This document shows positions 1 through 38,096 of a stretch of DNA of 64,000 nucleotides, piece after piece; within the stretch, counting starts at the first letter, position 1, and each line of letters starts with the position of its first letter. This stretch comes from Yuukianura sp. NJ FZ-2021 (lineage: Eukaryota): assembly GCA_046563655.1 (NCBI GenBank), contig CM102289.1, forward strand, positions 7,750,001-7,814,000, read 5' to 3'. A model generated the notes under the pieces. It saw only the letters and a program-made list of their open reading frames with translations. It was not told where the DNA came from and ran no database searches. Both the position numbers and the translations under genes were made by a program.

Positions 1-1676
1 GGCCACCACATCCAAACCGTACTTGATTCCAGAAAAATTAAGAATCTGTTCCAGGCTAAGTCAAGAGGTATGACATTCTACTGCCAAGTACTTGCATTGT
101 TAACATTCGAACTAATTTATAATTGCATTTCACTTTCTTCTAGATATTTATCAACGTGCCTGATTTAGCCGAGCGAGTCGAGATTCTAAAGTCTATGCAA
201 GCCGAGAATTCAGAACTTTCATCACTGAACATTGAATTCTTAGCGAGAAGAACTCCGGGATACGTTCGCTCTGACCTAATTCGATTAATCAATCTGGCGC
301 TACTCAAATCCCATGTTAGTCAATGCGACTTTTACTCATGATATCATTATGATTTTATAATTTAAATCTTAAACTTATTAATTTTACATAGGAAACAAAC
401 GACTGTCAAAGTTTTGAGAAACATCTCAAGTTTGCCCTCTCTCGTGTCCTTCCTTCTGTACTGCAAGGTGGCATTGGTGTAATAAGCAGCAAAGTTTCTG
501 AAGGTTTGGAACGCATTTCTGGGCTCGACGCTGTCAAAATGGAGCTAGTGCAAACAATTGTTTGGCCATTGGTCATTCCAGAAGCGCTGGAACGGATGGG
601 AATTCAGCCTCAGAAAGGTATGCTGAAGTTTTTTTTGTGCAGATTATGGAGAATGTTGGAAGTAAAAATTAGTTTGTTTGCAGGAATAATCTTGTACGGT
701 CCTTCAGGATGTGGGAAAACATCGCTAGTACGAGCTATAGCCAGCAGTCATCATACCAATTTCATCTCTGTTTCTTCCGCAGAATTATTTTCTTGTGGTG
801 TTGGAGACAGTGAAAAAATAATTTCTCATTTATTTCATTTAGCGAGACAAGCATCTCCTTGTGTCCTCTTCATAGATGAACTTGGTAAAAAATAATTTTT
901 TTTTAAATTTATGTCAACACTGTGATCTAAAAATAATTTTTTTTAATTCCAATTTAGACGCGATTGTTGGCTCAAGGGATTCGAAATCTTCCGGTGGGAA
1001 AGGAGTGAATGACATGATACTTTCAATGCTTTTGACTGAGATGGACGGAATTGGACAACGGAACTCATTTGCCGTTCAAGGACATGATAAAGTAAGTAAT
1101 AAAAGCTATTTATTGTAGGTCTTTTTGCGAAAATCTGATAATAATGAAATATTTTTATCTTAAGAAATCGCCAGCATTTGGGCAGCGATTTGTAGTCGTT
1201 GGAGCCACCAACCGTCCGGAGATGATAGATTCGGCATTACTCCGCCCAGGACGCTTCGATCGCCTTGTCCCTGTACCTCCGCCAAACGAAACTGATCGAC
1301 TAAAGTTGTTGAAGAACTGTACCCGGAATACTGCTTTAGGCAATGATGTGATACTTGAAAGCATCGCTAAAAGAACAGAGCGCTTCTCTGGTGCGGATAT
1401 TGTCAACCTTTGCAGAGAGGTAGGGAAACTCGACATGTAAAGTTAATAATTTCTTCAACCTGGTACAAATTAAGTTTGTTTTACTTGCAGGCGGGACTTC
1501 GTGCTCTTTCCGAAAATATCGACGCTACTTGTGTATCAATGAAGCACTATGAAGATGCTTTAAGTGGATGTTCTCCTTCGATATCTAACCAATATCTAGA
1601 TTCCTTTTACAAATATTCCTCCCGAGAAGCTGCCAGCACACTGCATATCGAACTGAACTCTCTGAACATTAATTGA
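1..1676 (+). CDS. SPATA5L1: AAA+ ATPase, SPATA5L1/AFG2B-like; 3' part only (end of D1 and complete D2), multi-exon, 5' end outside window
   Basis: Spliced translation gives D2 Walker A GPSGCGKT, Walker B VLFIDE and SRH GATNRPEMIDSALLRPGRFDR. The segment GLDAVKMELVQTIVWPL..VGDSEKIISHLFHLARQASP..LSMLLTEMDGIG resembles SPATA5L1 D2. Stop TGA at 1674-1676. Subfamily call is from memory. Confidence 0.8.
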
Positions 1677-2009
1677 TCATTACAATTATTTTAACTTTGC
1701 GAAGACTTAATTCAATTGTAATTGGAATGTCGAAACATTATGGCTTTATGTAAACAAGTATTTTTATAAATTACTTTTTTACGTAAATGAACCTTCGTCA
1801 CCAATCATTAAAACATTTTTGTCAAGCCAACGGGAGGCAAGTTTTCAAAAATCTTTAAAAACAATTTGAAAACGTCACCAACTTGCGGAGCAGCCGCTGC
1901 TGCCGCATCTATCAGAGACGGAGACGTTGGAAGACGCTGCTGCTAATGCAGCTTTTATTATTATAAGAATTATGTAATTTCATTACTTCAATTCTCCCCA
2001 ACCTCCAAC

Positions 2010-5000
2010 ATGTTTGAGGCGTACTTACGAGACTTAATTACTACTGTGCTGGGGAACTTCTTTGAGAACATTGATGCGACGCCATTGGAAGTATCCTTAT
2101 GGAGAGGTTAGAATTTTCAAATTTCATTTCGATGACATAACTTATTTTCCCGCCATTTCTTTGTTTCACAGGTGATGTTGTCCTGCGGAATGTGAAAATC
2201 AAGAGCACTGTCATGATTGACTTTTACTTGCCATTCAAGATAATTGCTGGCAGAATCGGTATTTCAATTTCAATCAAAAATTTCATGAATTACAGCTAAA
2301 GATATATTTTTTTGTCTTTTAGGAACCCTAACGTTGAAGGTCCCTTGGTCGCAAATCTACACCGCTTCAGTGGAAGCTACAATGAAAGATTGCCATCTTA
2401 TCGTCAATCCATGTCAGACAGCACCGTATAATGCTGAAGAGGAGGAGCGATATGAGCATCATAAGAAGATGCAATCGGTAGAAAAAATTGAAAGAAAACT
2501 TCGAGCGGAGCAAGCAGCTTCAGAAAGCAGAGGTCAAGTTCCAGAATAATTTTGTCCAAAAACAATGCAGGAGTAAGATTCTTTTTTAATTTTAGACTCC
2601 GTGCCTGGTTCCGGCACATCCAGCGCTTCCAGTGCAAAATTTAGCCAAGGTCTGCTAATGCTGATCCTCAAAAATTTGCATCTTCATGTCGATGGACTGC
2701 ATATTCGCTATGAAGATTCCATCAGCAATCCCACGGTTCCGTTTGCCCTTGGAATTGCTCTGAATACTTTGAACATGCGCACAACAGACAGCGCCTGGAA
2801 TCCAATTCGGACGAGTGAGGAAGCTGGAGTTCCAGTAGTCACGTACTACAAGCATTTGAGTCTCCAGGGATTGGCGGTATATTTGAATTCAGATGGAAAC
2901 TTGCTGGGGAAAAAATATGAAGAACAAGAAGAGATGCTGGATGCTTTGAGAAATTTGACCCGTTTACAAATGCATACGCTCAAATATTGTAAGTTTAGTA
3001 CTGAACTATGTGATACAATTTAAAATTTTGAAAATCTTGACAATTTGAAATTGTTGACAGTGATTGGTCCAATTGCTACTGAAATGAAAATGCGCGTTAC
3101 ACCGAATCCTGATGCACTTCCAACACCATTCGCATTGCCTAAACTGTCATTGGAAGTTTCGATGGATCAACTTACTTTGGGTAAATGACAAAATTTCGAT
3201 TTCGATTTTGAAAAATTTCGATTTGAAAGTGTTTTTTAAATAAAATAAAAATTTATTTTTGAAAATATTTCAGGCATTTCAAATCTCCAGTTCCAAAATT
3301 TACTCTATCTTGCTGAAACCGTCGAATTCATGTCACGAGGCAGACGCTACCGCAAGTTTCGTCCCGCAGTCAACTCATACACCGGAAATTCTGCATTGTG
3401 GTATGCAAAACTTTTGTTTCAAAATGCACAAGCGCACGTTGCCAAACTCTTTGAGCAACAAATTTAGTTTCATATACTTTAGGTGGCAGTTTGCTTACGA
3501 CTGTGTTGTCTCTCAAATTCGACGAAAACGACAATCATGGGACTACAACAATATTAAAAATCATCGCGAACTCGGTCGGCGTTACTGTGAGGTGTGTTTT
3601 ACACAATTTTGGAAATACTTTGATTTTTTTTTAGTTTGATTTTTTTTTGTATAGAACTACTACCAGAAAGTTGTGTTACACAACAACAGTTTAGCGGTGA
3701 AGAACAATTTGACTGCCTGTGAGAAAGAACTTGATGTGTTCAATATCGTCTACCTTCGAGCCAAAGTTCAGGTTACGAAAGAACGTGCGGAACAAGCGGA
3801 ACTTGAATACAAGAAACGATATGGCTGGTTGTCAACTGTATTTGGCTGGAACGCGGCCGAAATGGCCGCTGAATTTGAAACAAAATTTCGAGAATCGCTG
3901 AGCGATCAAGAGAAAAAAAAGCTGAATCAAGCAATTGGGTTCAGTGAAAACACTGCACCAACAGTTTATCCCAACGACTACGTTAGTCACACACTTTCCT
4001 TTGGAATTGAAACTCTGAGTACCTTCATCACGGACTATCCAAGCACCAAGGAACCAATCGGACGACAGTTAATCAAAATCACAATCAAAAACATGGAAGC
4101 AGGGTAATTCATTTGAAATACTGCGAATTGTCATCGGATTTCAATTCTGTTTGGATATCATTTAGAGTTCAGTATCGTCCTGCAGTACATGGATCGAACC
4201 TGCACGCAAGTATTGGAACTGTTGAAGCTGATACTGTCGAGACTTCCGTTTTGTCCACATTTTCCATTTTGAAAACACACAAATTGAAACCGGACGAGAA
4301 TTTTCTGGAGTTTGAATGGGAGCGCCGCCCTTTCAATACTACTGGCAGCAAGCGCATTACGCTAATTGCTCAAGCGCTGGGATTTATTTACAATGCCAAG
4401 ACTCTACAGCAAATCCGAAACTGTTTTGCTCTTCCAAAGGAAATCCAATTACAAACGTGAGTTCATAAAACAAAAATTTTGAAAAAGAAAATTGTTTCTT
4501 AGTAATTTATGTTTACAGATTGCGACTGAACGCAAAAACACGACTGAATGAATACAGGGAAAATGTGTTGATCTACGTACAAGACTGGATTCAAAAAAGT
4601 TATGAAGGGCACCTCATTCTCCGCATTGAAATGGATGCATCCTATTTAATCATTCCAGAAAACGGAGAATTGAAAGAGTATGTTTAAAAAAAACACGATT
4701 TGTTGAACCAGACTTTAAAAAAATGAATTTTTCCCTCAGGAAATGCAATTGTGTCATCATTGACTCTGGCCAATTAAAAATTCAAAGTCGAATTCAAAAC
4801 GTAGAGGACGCTAGGGATGACCAATCGGAGCATGTCGTCGCCAGCCTGAGAAATGCCAAGGTAAAGTAAAATTTGACATTTTTTAAAATTTGACGATTTT
4901 TTTAAAACACAAGATTGTGTTGGTGCTTCCTGGATTCGAAAATGGCGTACTGCTGCCAATCAGAAAACGTCTCTTGACTGCTTCAACGGCCGCTAGCTCT

Positions 5001-6246
5001 CCCAACTTGAATGAATCCATAGTAGAATCTTTGGTTTCGTCAGTTCGAAATGCGACTCCAAAAAGAAACGAAATTGTCAATGTAAGGCACTACATACTTT
5101 TTTTTTTTTTTTTTGTAATTTTTCAAAATTTGCGGCACATAAAACGCTGTAGTTCATGTATCATCAATCTCTTCATTTGATTTATCTAGCTAATGGATCC
5201 TGTACAAATTTCAGCAACTATAACAAAATCAGGAGACGAAAATATTGTCAACACCCGAATTTCCGACATCTCTTTGCGATTCAATCCAAGTATTTCCTTA
5301 TTTTAGTTGGTTTATTTGTTAATAATTAAGAAATTAAACCAACTTTATTACAGATTGTCTATATGAATTTTGAATTTTTCTTTGTTTACAGTTTCAGCAG
5401 AATTGTTTCGACGCATTTCAAAGTCCTGGCATGATTTGGATTTCGAAAATGGAATCAAACAACTTGCCGAAGATTGCACTTTTATGCAAAATTTTTATGA
5501 TCACTCAAGTCCATATGTCCAGAACTCAGCTATTCATTCTTATTTGCGCCAAGTACAAGAAGGACAGTTTGTGTTGAGCGTAAGAATAGTTTCTACGGTT
5601 TTGAATTAGTAATTAGAAGAACTACTAAAACTTATTTTTGTTTCCAGAATTTGAAACAGGGTGAAGAAAAACGTACACTGGACAAGTACATTTGCCACGC
5701 TCTGCTTGGAAATCCCGCGGCAAATATGATTCTTGTCACCACGGATCACGTTTTCTATTTGGGTTTCACCGACATTCATGGAAAAGTCAACGTAATTCAC
5801 TAAACTAATCTGCATCATGCACTTATTATTAAATTTCAAAAAATATTTTAGGTCACGTGGGAATATTCGTACGAAGATTTCATTGATCAGCCAAAGAAGA
5901 CTGAGCAGACTCCAGGCGAGATTGGAATTACTTTTAACATCAAAAAGTCAACGAAAGAGGGCGTGGCAACCTCAAAAAATTCAGCCAAAAATTCAACCTT
6001 GGCGGAAACCTCAACATTCTTTTTACTCATCGAGGAACCTCCAATTTGTGACGTAATTCTTAAACTTTTTACGCAAATTAACCTACTCAAAACGTGAAAA
6101 CCAAGTAAAGTCTAGCTAAAACCTATTTTTGAATTTTGCAGTGGATACTCACAAAAATCATTGAATCTCTTGCGCAGTATCGGTTGGTTCGAACCTGTGA
6201 CGAAGCTACAACTTCCTACACAAGTCCAAACGTTGCACAACATTGA
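2010..6246 (+). CDS. Short VPS13-like protein (chorein N-terminal region plus C-terminal PH-like domain), about 17 exons, about 1,020 aa
   Basis: Starts MFEAYLRDLITTVLGNFFENIDATPLEVSLWRGDVVLRNVKIK..GTLTLKVPW (chorein N). Also IRYED..PFALGIAL, WWQFAYDCV and EKKKLNQAIGFSE. Ends with DKYICHALL..MILVTTDHVFY..VTWEYSYEDF..WILTKIIES, like the VPS13A/C C-terminus. GT-AG introns, phases checked by hand across the 3' exons; stop TGA 6244-6246. Confidence 0.85.
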
Positions 6247-6575
6247 ACCTCATTCAAATTTTCATTCACTCCTACTCAAAATTCCACTTTTCCAACAAAA
6301 TTTCCCACTTAAATGAATACAACCTGCTGATGCTAATGTCACCGTTACACGTAGAATGTAAATAACCGAATGGAAAAACCTAATTGTTAATTGACATTTC
6401 ATGTTGTGTGTGATGATCCTCTCTTCCCGTTTGGTATTCAAACTTTGAACTGATCTGGATTAGGAATTACCGTATTTTTTTTACCACTTTACGGGAAATA
6501 CCAAGCGAATCAGTCACAATTTCAAGTGGACAGAAGTGTTACGACAAGTGACGATTAAACTTTACTACTTCTTCC

Positions 6576-7550
6576 ATGTTGTCGTTAAACACAGTTGTAA
6601 TTAGTGTAATGTGTGATATTGTACGATTTCTTATTATAATTCTCACCTTTACTACTGTCGCCAGTAGTAAAGCATTGCCAGCAAATACGGTAAACGCTTC
6701 AACATTCATCTCATCTCAAAATTGTTCTCAGTACATATCGGATCCAAAATTTCGATTGGACCAGGTAAGTTTTAAAAATTTCAAAAACAACTTACATAGT
6801 TATTTGAAACAACTACCTTATTTTCTCGCAAATAACGCGCGCATTATCTGTGAAATTACAGAGAATTTTGGAATTGAAATTTTTATGTTGGCATGCGTTA
6901 GCTGCGAGAAAATGCGGTAGGATTTGGAGAAAGTTGTAAAAGAATTTTTGTAAAAATTAATTTAAAAAAAAACTTTGTTTTTTTCAGTTTGAAGGAAACT
7001 GGAACTATATCAGATACTTTAGTTCTCAAATTAACAATCCGCAATGCATGACGCTACATTCCAAAATCGAAGACACCAAAGTTGACATGACCATTGGCCT
7101 AAAACTAAGCAATGGAGATGGTTTTAGTGGTCCAGAAAATACAGACGAAAAAACTTGGACACATTTCATCGATGTATTCGGTTACGTCGAAATGGACAAA
7201 AGTCGACAAGATGTTCCTGGAACATGGGCACTCTACTCTGACTTATCATTGGGTAAACCCTAAGTTTACACTAGTTTTATGATTATGGATTAATTGTGAA
7301 TTATCTTCCATGTCCAGCCCCTTCCAAGTGGATCGTTTTATCAGGCAATTCTTGGGAAGTTCTGTACATGATTTGTGGCGACTATCCAGATCAGAGTTCG
7401 CGAGTCGGCGAGATTGGAATTCTCAGTAGGGGAACTACGATTCCAGACCAGGAGGTCAGACACTTCCAACAAATCTTGGACACTTACGGTCTCAGCGTGA
7501 CACTCGATGAAGTTTCCCATACTGATTGTGATACTGTAGCAGTACTCTAA
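6576..7550 (+). CDS. Secreted lipocalin, apolipoprotein D-like; exons about 6576-6764, 6987-7252, 7318-7550
   Basis: Hydrophobic signal (FLIIILTFTTVASS). SCR1-like CSQYISDPKFRLDQ|FEGNWNYI containing GxW. SCR3-like GILSRGTTIP. C-terminal Cys (SHTDCD). Start could be ATG 6576 or 6609. Confidence 0.75.
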
Positions 7551-36516: not shown

Positions 36517-36604
36517 TACTCCCATTCTGTTTCATTTCAAACCACTTCAAACTTTGTTTTCAATTTTTCGTAAGTTCTTTTTCTGAAAATCCACCAAATT
36601 CAAA

Positions 36605-37114
36605 ATGGCAACACGAGACATGTCAATTCCCTACACGGAAGAGGAGATCCAGGACATTATTGACGTTAGCAAGACCTACCCAACGTACGATGGACACTCC
36701 ATCAGTCACAAGGACTTTGGACCATTGTGTGAGTTCATGCGCTGGCCACGATCCAAGGCCCAATTGGACGCCTTCAGCGAGTACTACGAGAAGCACTTGG
36801 GTGGACGTCTTGGACTGGAGGAAATGAAGCAACTTATGCGAGATCAACGCTCACCACAAACCCATGCTGGCTGGTACGCCAACAAGTTTGACCTCAACAA
36901 GAACGGATACATTGACAAGGAAGAGTTCGATGCTGTCTATGCTTTGATGTCCGTACAATGGCCAGCCATTGCTGGAAAGAGCTACGAAGACTTTGTTAAC
37001 GAAGCTGATACGAACAAGGACGGAAAAGTTGACATTCAAGAACTCATCAACTGGCTTGCTTCGGTCCACAAACCGTGTTCGAAGCCCTGCTGCCCGAAAA
37101 GCGCATGCGCTTAA
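36605..37114 (+). CDS. Intronless calmodulin-like EF-hand protein, 169 aa, with Cys-rich C-terminal tail
   Basis: Canonical loops DLNKNGYIDKEE and DTNKDGKVDIQE; degenerate N-lobe. AAAATGG start context; AATAAA at 37182-37187. Confidence 0.9.
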   Translation: MATRDMSIPYTEEEIQDIIDVSKTYPTYDGHSISHKDFGPLCEFMRWPRSKAQLDAFSEYYEKHLGGRLGLEEMKQLMRDQRSPQTHAGWYANKFDLNKNGYIDKEEFDAVYALMSVQWPAIAGKSYEDFVNEADTNKDGKVDIQELINWLASVHKPCSKPCCPKSACA

Positions 37115-37543: not shown

Positions 37544-37625
37544 CCCCTAAAACATAGTTTAGTCCAATTTCAAACGCAATCTTCAAAAATCTTTGCTACT
37601 CAATAAGTTGAAGAGATAAAGGAAA

Positions 37626-38096
37626 ATGGCGGGCCGTGACATGTCTGTCCAGTACACCGAAGAAGAAATTGAGTCTATCATTGAGGCTTGTAGAAAATTT
37701 CCAAGTTGTGACGGAAAGTCGTTCAGTACTTCTGATTTTGATCTGGTAGCTCCCATCATGCGCTGGGATCGTACACAGGCGCAAGTAGATGCTTTTCGGA
37801 GGTACTGGCAAAAGTACTTGGGAGGACGCCTTGGGCTGGAAGAGTTTAAGCAACTTCTGCGTGACACGACTTGTCCCAGTGCCCATGCTGGTTGGTTTGC
37901 TCGAAAAGGTGACCTCAACGGAGATGGAACTATTAGTAAAGACGAGTTCGAGGCCATCTACGAACTCATGTCTGTCCAATGGTCAAAAACTACTGGAAAG
38001 ACTTTCGAAGACTTCGTGAGGGAAGCAGACACAAACAAGGACGGACGCGTTGACATTGCTGAATTTACGGCTTGGTTGGCCAAAAATAGTAAATGA
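37626..38096 (+). CDS. Intronless calmodulin-like EF-hand protein, 156 aa, tandem paralog of 36605-37114
   Basis: Loops DLNGDGTISKDE and DTNKDGRVDIAE. Shares RDMS.YTEEEI, MRW.R..AQ.DAF, LGGRLGLEE, HAGW.A.K and MSVQW with the paralog. AATAAA at 38160-38165. Confidence 0.9.
   Translation: MAGRDMSVQYTEEEIESIIEACRKFPSCDGKSFSTSDFDLVAPIMRWDRTQAQVDAFRRYWQKYLGGRLGLEEFKQLLRDTTCPSAHAGWFARKGDLNGDGTISKDEFEAIYELMSVQWSKTTGKTFEDFVREADTNKDGRVDIAEFTAWLAKNSK

What the first reader, a model, noticed from the sequence alone, without database searches (positions are those of the whole stretch)
2010..6246. Mini-VPS13: chorein N-terminal region spliced directly to the C-terminal PH-like domain, about one third of normal length
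Seen: hand splicing gives one frame-consistent ORF of about 1,020 aa with no internal stop. It follows VPS13 N-terminal motifs through ..IEMDASYLIIPENG..IIDSGQLKIQS..LMDPVQISATI..ISDISLRF (exon 5190-5289). Within the next exon (5392-5579) it switches to IHSYLRQVQEGQFVLSNLKQG..DKYICH..WEYSYEDF..WILTKIIES. Known: VPS13 proteins are 3,000+ aa bridge-like lipid transfer proteins with RBG repeats, then VAB, ATG2_C and PH domains; the ending here resembles the VPS13A C-terminus as I recall it. Inference: this is an internally deleted paralog lacking most of the groove and the VAB and ATG2_C regions. It could be a short lipid bridge for narrow contact sites, a shuttle, or a regulator of full-length VPS13.
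Basis: partly seen in the sequence, partly recalled or inferred. Interest (0 to 1): 0.82.

Follow-up and report, generated by a model that had tools for sequence, protein, structure and literature searches.

The report
Miniature VPS13 lipid-transfer gene
A probable springtail genome carries an intact gene for a one-third-length version of the giant lipid-bridge protein VPS13, which keeps only the front of the lipid groove and the tail docking domain; I found no description of such a natural short form.

Summary
Window 2010-6246 (+) splices through 16 short GT-AG introns into one open frame of about 1,021 aa. Residues 1-709 match the first 700 positions of a profile built from 30 full-length VPS13 proteins (564 bits). 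Residues 854-1000 match its last 130 positions, the VPS13_C PH-like domain (43 bits, 3e-16). About 2,250 profile positions in between are absent, replaced by 145 aa with no detectable similarity. The missing part covers the middle groove, the VAB domain and everything up to the C-terminal domain.

Contigs from two studies are colinear across the junction. Of the listed exonic variants, 17 of 18 are synonymous, and all 7 listed indels inside the gene are intronic. The gene keeps 15 of 16 residues invariant in VPS13 N-termini.

The neighbouring gene and a tree point to a springtail or other hexapod, not a nematode. By homology to a folded reference, about 4 RBG units remain.

No RNA run, whole genome or clear ortholog was available. 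Expression, paralogy and function are therefore untested. Verdict: a real gene and a new variant of a known kind, of moderate interest.

The parts
2010..6246 (+). Whole coding span of the mini-VPS13 gene (17 exons, about 1,021 aa, stop TGA 6244-6246)
   Evidence: Spliced ORF without internal stop, all introns GT..AG
2010..4827 (+). Exons 1-11 up to residue 709: VPS13 N-terminal groove segment (chorein N-terminus, RBG1-3 and the first two strands of RBG4 by homology)
   Evidence: Profile of 30 full-length VPS13s: residues 1-709 = positions 1-700, 564 bits. Pfam VPS13_N hits in exons 1-4 and 6-9. 15 of 16 invariant positions kept. Exon 4 matches solved VPS13 N-termini, 6cbc_A at 1e-15
4828..5522 (+). 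Residues 710-853 (end of exon 11, exons 12-13, first 44 aa of exon 14): lineage-specific stretch with no significant similarity; possibly the rest of RBG4 plus a helix and a linker
   Evidence: No significant match: 4.9 bits, hhalign probability 3.4%, -0.2 bits with 175 of 497 shuffles as good. Exon-like GC of 0.37-0.44
5523..6180 (+). Residues 854-1000 (end of exon 14, exons 15-17): VPS13 C-terminal PH-like domain (VPS13_C)
   Evidence: Profile positions 2953-3081, 43 bits, 3e-16. C-terminal sub-profile 54.4 bits, 1.2e-16. BLASTP to the last 120-127 residues of P0139 and P0064, E 2.7e-10 and 5e-11. Pfam VPS13_C in exon 15
2010..2106 (+). exon 1
2172..2258 (+). exon 2
2323..2532 (+). exon 3
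2596..2988 (+). exon 4 (best-conserved exon)
3061..3180 (+). exon 5
3274..3397 (+). exon 6 (its donor is the least certain boundary: GTGGTA)
3483..3591 (+). exon 7
3655..4103 (+). exon 8
4166..4456 (+). exon 9
4519..4677 (+). exon 10
   Evidence: tblastn of P0139 residues 611-666
4740..4860 (+). exon 11 (detectable N-terminal homology ends here)
4914..5081 (+). exon 12
5190..5289 (+). exon 13
5392..5579 (+). exon 14 (holds both the end of the linker and the start of the PH-like domain)
5648..5791 (+). exon 15
5852..6052 (+). exon 16
6142..6246 (+). exon 17 with stop codon

Best explanation
This is an intact gene under purifying selection, in a probable springtail or other hexapod. It encodes a fast-evolving, one-third-length derivative of the VPS13A/C-type lipid-transfer protein.

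Shown: it keeps the N-terminal chorein end and the first 700 or so residues of the hydrophobic groove. It then has 145 residues of lineage-specific sequence and ends in the VPS13 C-terminal PH-like domain. The middle groove, the VAB adaptor-binding domain and the region before the PH-like domain are gone.

Inferred: the retained groove is about 4 RBG units, roughly 6 nm long. That is too short to span a usual 10-30 nm membrane contact. I therefore think it works as a docked short lipid conduit or tethered shuttle. The PH-like domain would fix it to one membrane, through a protein partner such as an XK-type scramblase or through an organelle surface, as in VPS13A. The chorein-end groove would pick up or deliver glycerolipids at a closely apposed membrane, much as the engineered mini-ATG2A fragment does.
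For: Gene structure: 17 exons and 16 GT..AG introns of 53-108 nt give one frame of 1,021 aa; exon GC is 0.43 against 0.25 in introns.

Homology: residues 1-709 = positions 1-700 and residues 854-1000 = positions 2953-3081 of a profile of 30 full-length VPS13s (alignment). The C-terminal match runs across exons 14-17 in order and reaches the final helix. Per-exon Pfam hits are collinear. The gene keeps 15 of 16 invariant and 18 of 21 nearly invariant N-terminal positions.

Selection: of the 40 listed differences (464 in all), 18 are exonic; 17 are synonymous and 1 is not. All 7 listed indel rows inside the gene, and an 80-nt skip, lie in introns, although introns make up only 28% of the span.

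Not an assembly collapse: contigs of two studies are colinear over 4714-5422, 5424-5772 and 5774-6596 (X5), 5042-5418 (X2) and 5499-5747 (X3).

No hidden exons: tblastn of 6 full-length VPS13s finds nothing else in the 64 kb.

Groove size: in the folded reference N-terminus (P0080, pLDDT 69), homology covers RBG1-3 and two strands of RBG4.

Precedents read as passages: mini-ATG2A 1-345 transfers lipid and rescues autophagy (PMC6548141). The VPS13A PH domain alone binds XK and mitochondria (PMC9436381). VPS13C with an internal deletion still forms shorter bridges (PMC9303930).
Against: The exon joins, above all 13-14, rest on frame and splice-site logic only.

No ortholog of the same architecture was found. 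The best database hit to exon 4 is 42% identical, so conservation beyond two closely related samples is not shown.

The N-terminal branch is very long, 2.33 against a median of 0.61. That could reflect relaxed constraint.

None of the listed variants lies in exons 11-17, so selection on the junction and on the PH-like part is not directly shown. The listed variants are also a subset, chosen by support.

The exon-level Pfam VPS13_C hit is below the curated cut-off (19.5 against 21 bits).

My pattern scan found no FFAT-like motif, so ER docking through VAP is not indicated.

The 4-RBG count and the 6 nm length are transferred from a reference model and from papers, not from a fold of this protein. 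Residues 710-853 have no demonstrable fold.
Confidence: 0.55

Rival explanations
1. It is a regulator or decoy rather than a transporter. The short protein would compete with a full-length VPS13 for the PH-domain partner, or for the membrane site of the N-terminus, and so tune bulk lipid flow without moving lipid itself.
For: It keeps exactly the two ends of VPS13 that contact membranes or partners. In VPS13A the PH domain alone is sufficient to bind XK, and that binding competes with other binding sites (PMC9436381 passages). The retained groove is too short for a usual contact gap (inference).
Against: It keeps 15 of 16 invariant and 18 of 21 nearly invariant groove-region positions over about 600 residues, and 17 of 18 listed exonic changes are synonymous. 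A pure decoy would need only the end domains. Whether a full-length VPS13 exists in this genome is unknown.
Confidence: 0.15
2. It is a silent or decaying partial duplicate, a young pseudogene that has not yet acquired stops.
For: The branch is very long. No ortholog was found. The 145-aa middle stretch has no similarity to anything.
Against: All 17 exons are in frame with 16 canonical introns. With this much divergence (25-31% identity to canonical VPS13) a neutral copy would have acquired stops and frameshifts. Listed changes are 17 synonymous to 1 non-synonymous, and listed indels lie only in introns. Family-invariant residues are kept.
Confidence: 0.1
3. There are two products rather than one: an N-terminal VPS13 fragment (exons 1-13) and a separate PH-only protein (exons 14-17), or alternative isoforms that are never joined in one mRNA.
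For: Without splicing of intron 13 the frame stops 15 nt after exon 13, and exon 14 contains an internal ATG. Several database records hold N-terminal-only VPS13 forms of about 1,040 aa.
Against: Intron 13 is 102 nt, GT..AG, 21% GC, like the other 15 introns, and it keeps the frame. Exon 14 is open from its acceptor, and its first 44 codons lie upstream of the PH-like domain. There is no room for a promoter or a 3' end between exons 13 and 14.
Confidence: 0.1
4. It is an assembly artefact: a collapse or misjoin removed the middle of a normal VPS13 gene.
For: One sample is very heterogeneous (464 differences). Some contigs show odd joints: 6965 back to 5648 in X2 and X3, and 4891 to 6952 in X2 with only 20 letters on the shorter side.
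Against: Contigs from two studies run colinearly through 4714-6596 with no joint between 5290 and 5650. The N-terminal homology fades inside exon 11 and the C-terminal homology starts inside exon 14, with 145 in-frame residues of unrelated coding-like sequence between them, which a simple collapse would not create. The N-terminus is only 25-31% identical to canonical VPS13, so this is not a recently truncated normal copy.
Confidence: 0.03

Closest known systems
Canonical VPS13A/C-type proteins of arthropods (for example Tachypleus XP_076324166.1, 3,200 aa; Trichonephila GFY45163.1, 3,203 aa; insect Vps13)
   Same: The N-terminal 700 residues are homologous and collinear at 25-31% identity. The C-terminal PH-like domain is homologous, and family-invariant N-terminal residues are kept. 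In a tree the protein falls among arthropod Vps13 sequences.
   Different: It has one third of the length. There is no VPS13_M groove region, no VAB domain and nothing matching the region before the PH-like domain. No FFAT-like motif was found. The branch is very long.
Engineered truncations: VPS13C lacking residues 1,235-1,748 (PMC9303930) and mini-ATG2A 1-345 (PMC6548141)
   Same: Both show that a shortened chorein-type groove still folds. The VPS13C deletion still bridges, about 5 nm shorter; the ATG2A fragment still transfers lipid and partly replaces the full protein (passages).
   Different: Those are laboratory constructs. The VPS13C deletion removes only about 14% of the protein and keeps VAB and ATG2_C. 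Mini-ATG2A has no PH domain. Here the truncation is natural, removes about 70%, and keeps the PH-like end.
Plant VPS13X and BLTP3/SHIP164, the shortest RBG proteins described in Levine 2022 (PMC7613979)
   Same: Both are shortened chorein-N groove proteins: VPS13X has 9 RBG domains and SHIP164 has 6 (passages).
   Different: VPS13X keeps VAB repeats and has lost the PH domain, the opposite pattern to this gene. SHIP164 has no VPS13-type PH end. This protein would have only about 4 RBG units.
N-terminal-only VPS13 records of about 1,040 aa (Limulus XP_022255667.1, Ladona KAG8230080.1, Halocaridina KAK7070439.1); a human VPS13A short isoform of about 1,095 aa is recalled from memory, not checked here
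   Same: Similar overall length and the same N-terminal region.
   Different: None has the C-terminal domain: 0 of 19 representatives of 600-2,000 aa carry a full VPS13_C match. They extend further along the canonical groove (profile to about 866) and may simply be partial gene models.

Membership tests
VPS13 (BLTP5) family | N-terminal chorein / VPS13_N region, collinear with the family profile | tested here: met
   Pfam PF12624 hits in 8 exons, positions 1-653 in order. 564 bits over profile positions 1-700. 15 of 16 invariant positions kept. Solved VPS13 N-termini matched.
VPS13 (BLTP5) family | Long middle groove (VPS13_M; RBG5 onward) | tested here: not met
   No Pfam VPS13_M hit in any exon. 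Profile positions 701-2952 are unmatched apart from a 4.9-bit stretch. Introns are at most 108 nt. No other VPS13 piece lies in the 64 kb.
VPS13 (BLTP5) family | VAB (adaptor-binding) repeats | tested here: not met
   No PF25036 hit in any exon, whereas the references P0139 and P0064 show it. No profile match either.
VPS13 (BLTP5) family | ATG2_C-type helices before the PH domain | tested here: inconclusive
   Nothing matches the profile just upstream of position 2953. But the Pfam scan did not report an ATG_C family even for the full-length references at E 0.001, so sensitivity is unknown. Residues 811-853 could be helical (not folded).
VPS13 (BLTP5) family | C-terminal PH-like domain (VPS13_C, PF25037) | tested here: met
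   43.1 bits, 3e-16 against the full profile. 54.4 bits against the C-terminal sub-profile. BLASTP E 5e-11 to the last 127 residues of P0064. The exon-15-only Pfam hit is 19.5 bits, below the 21-bit cut-off.
VPS13 (BLTP5) family | Bulk glycerolipid binding and transfer along a hydrophobic groove | not testable with these tools
   This needs a fold of the spliced protein and a lipid-transfer assay.
VPS13A/C subgroup | FFAT motif for VAP binding after RBG4 | tested here: not met
   A loose FFAT-like pattern, written from memory of the motif, found no match in the 1,021 aa. A divergent or phospho-FFAT motif is not excluded.
VPS13A/C subgroup | Groups with VPS13A/C-type sequences in a tree | tested here: inconclusive
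   It sits inside the arthropod Vps13 group, but on a 2.33 branch with SH-aLRT 80, in a quick tree only. No VPS13B or VPS13D sequences were identified among the rows.
BLTP3/SHIP164 and ATG2 (other short chorein-N proteins) | N-terminus closest to that family, with that family's C-terminal end | tested here: not met
   No exon hit an ATG2 family. All named best hits are VPS13. The C-terminus is VPS13_C.

The most novel reading that the evidence does not exclude
This may be the shortest natural repeating-beta-groove lipid transporter so far: a VPS13 cut down by evolution to about four groove units plus its PH docking domain. It would be kept under selection in a hexapod lineage. The reciprocal-best 114-aa fragment P0001 from another sequencing run hints that the lineage is older than this species. 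It would work as a self-sufficient lipid conduit at very tight contacts, or as a scramblase-docked shuttle. If so, nature has already defined the minimal functional VPS13 module.
Probability: 0.3. Interest if true: 0.7.

Novelty: new variant of a known kind. Interest (0 to 1): 0.5.

Why it matters
VPS13 proteins are thought to work because they are long enough to bridge two organelles. A naturally selected form with only about 4 of 12 groove units and only the PH-like targeting domain bears on three questions. How much groove is needed for lipid transfer? Must a VPS13 bridge, or can it shuttle? Is the PH-partner contact, XK-type scramblases in VPS13A, the core functional coupling? At about 1,000 aa the protein is also far easier to express, purify and solve than full-length VPS13, so it could serve as a natural minimal model. 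If it turns out to be unexpressed, or confined to one species, it is only a curiosity of gene duplication.

Tried and rejected
- Nematode origin. I guessed this from the short introns and TTTCAG acceptors. I rejected it because the neighbouring AAA-ATPase exon is closest to springtail proteins (Orchesella cincta 54%, Allacma fusca 46%), and the VPS13 part groups with arthropod sequences, apart from nematode VPS13A.
- Whole genome: none is held, so a full-length VPS13 copy could not be sought.
- RNA evidence: no RNA holder was listed.
- Orthologs. Word-index searches found none with exon 8 (longer proteins) or exon 14 (similar length). Two metagenome scans with exons 4 and 8 found none. The representative library gave no hit above 42% identity with exon 4.
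- Earlier notes of this scan: nothing on this genome or sequence.
- Rfam and tRNA scans of the window: nothing.
- Similarity of the 710-853 stretch to any part of VPS13: 4.9 bits, hhalign probability 3.4%, no better than shuffles.
- Exon 15 against solved structures by sequence: no match.
- The spliced 1,021-aa protein was not folded, because the structure tools take only contiguous translations. A reference N-terminus (P0080) was folded instead.
- No copy of the gene region lies elsewhere in the window.
Full report
**Observation.** Window 2010-6246 (+) reads as a gene with short introns. A three-frame translation shows the open segments. A search over GT and AG sites within 8 nt of my first boundary guesses found 96 combinations that give one uninterrupted frame from ATG 2010 to TGA 6244-6246. 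The 10 printed were 1,013-1,021 aa.

I use this 1,021-aa model: exons 2010-2106, 2172-2258, 2323-2532, 2596-2988, 3061-3180, 3274-3397, 3483-3591, 3655-4103, 4166-4456, 4519-4677, 4740-4860, 4914-5081, 5190-5289, 5392-5579, 5648-5791, 5852-6052 and 6142-6246. All 16 introns are 53-108 nt and GT..AG. Exon GC is 0.37-0.45 and intron GC is 0.17-0.35.

**What the protein matches.** I scanned each exon against Pfam.
- Exons 1-4 and 6-9 (8 of 17) hit VPS13_N in collinear order, profile positions 1-653 of 1317. The best is exon 4 at E 4e-21.
- Exon 15 hits VPS13_C at E 9.6e-4 and 19.5 bits, just under the 21-bit cut-off.
- The other 8 exons hit neither family.

A library-wide HMMER search with exon 4 gave 680 hits at E up to 1e-3, and the best was only 42% identical.

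I built a profile from 30 full-length representatives of 2,883-3,541 aa and scored the spliced protein against it.
- Residues 1-709 match positions 1-700 (564 bits).
- Residues 854-1000 match positions 2953-3081 of 3083 (43 bits, 3e-16).
- The only thing in between is a 4.9-bit stretch.

BLASTP agrees. Residues 854-997 align to residues 3076-3202 of the 3,203-aa spider protein P0064 (5e-11). Residues 866-999 align to residues 3079-3198 of the 3,200-aa horseshoe-crab protein P0139 (2.7e-10). In P0139, Pfam places VPS13_N at 1-1066, VPS13_M at 1062-1868, VAB at 1949-2478 and VPS13_C at 3058-3181.

The C-terminal alignment runs through exons 14, 15, 16 and 17 in order and reaches the last helix. 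So the architecture is the front 700 residues plus the PH-like tail, and about 2,250 profile positions are missing. No other VPS13-like piece lies in the 64 kb, and the introns leave no room for one.

**Where the join lies.** Detectable N-terminal homology stops at about residue 709, in exon 11.

Residues 700-860 score -0.2 bits against the canonical 690-900 region, and 175 of 497 shuffles do as well. hhalign gives 3.4% probability. So the claim that VPS13 motifs continue through exon 13 is not supported statistically.

**Is it real?** Several lines say yes.
- Logan contigs from two studies are colinear with the window across the critical part: X5 at 4714-5422, 5424-5772 and 5774-6596; X2 at 5042-5418; X3 at 5499-5747. 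No joint lies between 5290 and 5650. No single listed contig spans all of it. Runs X1-X3 come from one sample, which may be the source of the assembly, so X5 is the only independent support.
- One search listed 40 of 464 differences. Of these, 18 fall in my exons, and 17 are synonymous against 1 non-synonymous. All 18 lie in exons 1-10.
- All 7 listed indel rows inside the gene (2264, 2306, 4482, 5301, 5632, 5634, 5635) and an 80-nt skip (3185-3266) are intronic. Introns are 28% of the span. These include introns 13 and 14, which flank the junction exon.
- The protein keeps 15 of 16 invariant and 18 of 21 nearly invariant positions of an alignment of 14 VPS13 N-termini.

Together these argue for a constrained coding gene and against a collapse or a decaying copy. 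No RNA run was listed, so the splicing itself is unverified.

**Organism and relatives.** The upstream AAA-ATPase exon (392-892) is closest to springtail proteins: Orchesella cincta 54% and Allacma fusca 46%.

In a quick maximum-likelihood tree of 36 N-termini, the protein lies inside the arthropod Vps13 group, which includes Diabrotica, Blattella and odonates. It is apart from nematode VPS13A. Its branch is 2.33 against a median of 0.61, and local support is only 80. The window is therefore probably from a springtail or another hexapod. This rests on one neighbouring gene and a weak tree.

Among the 150 best representatives, 27 carry a C-terminal domain match. All full matches are in proteins of at least 2,883 aa. 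None of the 19 representatives of 600-2,000 aa has a full match; P0058 has a 12.9-bit fragment. The arthropod records of about 1,040 aa have VPS13_N only.

Searches for orthologs found none. One lead remains. The 114-aa Logan fragment P0001 is reciprocal-best with this protein within the set (102 bits against at most 79 for any canonical representative), and it ends where exon 4 ends.

**How much groove is left?** I could not fold the spliced protein, because the structure tools take only contiguous translations. Instead I folded a reference N-terminus, P0080 (1,045 aa, 14-row alignment, mean pLDDT 69, pTM 0.60).

I grouped its strands by the rule of five strands followed by a loop (Levine 2022, passage).
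- RBG1: residues 1-91.
- RBG2: residues 150-293.
- RBG3: residues 484-594.
- RBG4: residues 647-788, followed by a helix and a disordered loop.

The mini protein aligns to P0080 up to residue 684 (model residue 689). That covers RBG1-3 and the first two strands of RBG4. Its next 120 or so residues are the right length for three more strands and a helix, but this is inference.

[quoted passage not shown] From memory, it sits in that loop after RBG4. An N-terminal fragment of about 160 kD has a groove about 160 Å long (PMC7199853, abstract seen in a listing). The retained groove is therefore roughly 6-9 nm. Contacts are usually 10-30 nm (PMC9481209, abstract seen in a listing).

**Mechanism.** Shown: the two ends of VPS13 are present, and the N-terminal part is constrained. 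Everything that follows is inferred.

The PH-like domain docks the protein. In VPS13A the PH domain alone binds XK and mitochondria. The short chorein-end groove takes up or delivers glycerolipids at a very close membrane. This resembles mini-ATG2A 1-345, which transfers lipid and rescues autophagy. VPS13C with an internal deletion still forms shorter bridges.

Because the groove is shorter than a normal contact, I favour a docked shuttle or a very short conduit over a classical bridge. The rivals are a decoy or regulator of full-length VPS13, an unexpressed relic, two separate products, and an assembly artefact. They are weighed in the Rival explanations section.

**Comparison and novelty.** Levine 2022 (passages only) gives VPS13A with 12 RBG domains as the shortest human form. 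It describes plant VPS13X with 9, which keeps VAB and lacks the PH domain, and SHIP164 with 6.

Two full-text searches found no paper on VPS13 in springtails, and none using the terms 'mini-VPS13', 'short paralog', 'truncated paralog' or 'lacks the VAB'. The C. elegans review lists only two VPS13 genes there, both over 3,000 aa. I read no supplements.

I did not test it.

On this evidence the gene is a new variant of a known kind. It is a member of the VPS13 family by both ends, but it fails the family's middle-groove and VAB features.

**Limits.** Four things were not available: RNA evidence, the whole genome, a fold of the protein itself, and any ortholog of the same architecture. Selection evidence covers exons 1-10 only and rests on a listed subset of variants.

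Noticed in passing
window 392-895 (+), ending near 1676: The upstream gene has an AAA-ATPase exon (Pfam AAA, 4.7e-19). Its best database hits are springtail SPATA5L1-like proteins (Orchesella cincta 54%, Allacma fusca 46%). This is the main clue to the organism.
   Followed up: partly
window 5648 and 6952-6965; also 4891: Contigs of runs X2 and X3 (one sample) join 6965 back to 5648 with 38 other letters between. One X2 contig joins 4891 to 6952, with only 20 letters on the shorter side. This may be a duplication of the gene's 3' part in some haplotypes, or misjoins at AT-rich acceptor-like sequence. No second copy lies in the window.
   Followed up: partly
proteins P0080, P0074, P0021, P0099 (database records, not the window): Four VPS13 N-terminal-only records of 1,038-1,050 aa come from a horseshoe crab, a dragonfly, a shrimp and a metagenome. 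All stop matching VPS13_N near profile position 866-885 and lack VPS13_C. They may be partial gene models or a recurrent short isoform.
   Followed up: partly
protein P0001 (Logan contig of 1,558 nt): This 114-aa fragment is reciprocal-best with exon 4 of this gene (40-42% identity, 102 bits against at most 79 to canonical VPS13s) and ends at the same exon boundary. It may be an ortholog in a distant relative. The contig could not be fetched.
   Followed up: partly
window 36587-37114 (+) and 37620-38096 (+): Two neighbouring open segments each carry paired EF-hand motifs (Pfam EF-hand_1 at 3e-13 each), which suggests tandem calcium-binding protein genes.
   Followed up: no
window 1500-7000 in runs X1-X3: One sample shows 464 single-letter differences and 70 indels over 5.5 kb, with several haplotype-like contigs per place. 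This suggests pooled individuals or very high heterozygosity.
   Followed up: no
window 6552-6920 (+): The downstream open segment begins with a hydrophobic, signal-peptide-like stretch and has no Pfam match. It is probably the first exon of the next gene.
   Followed up: no
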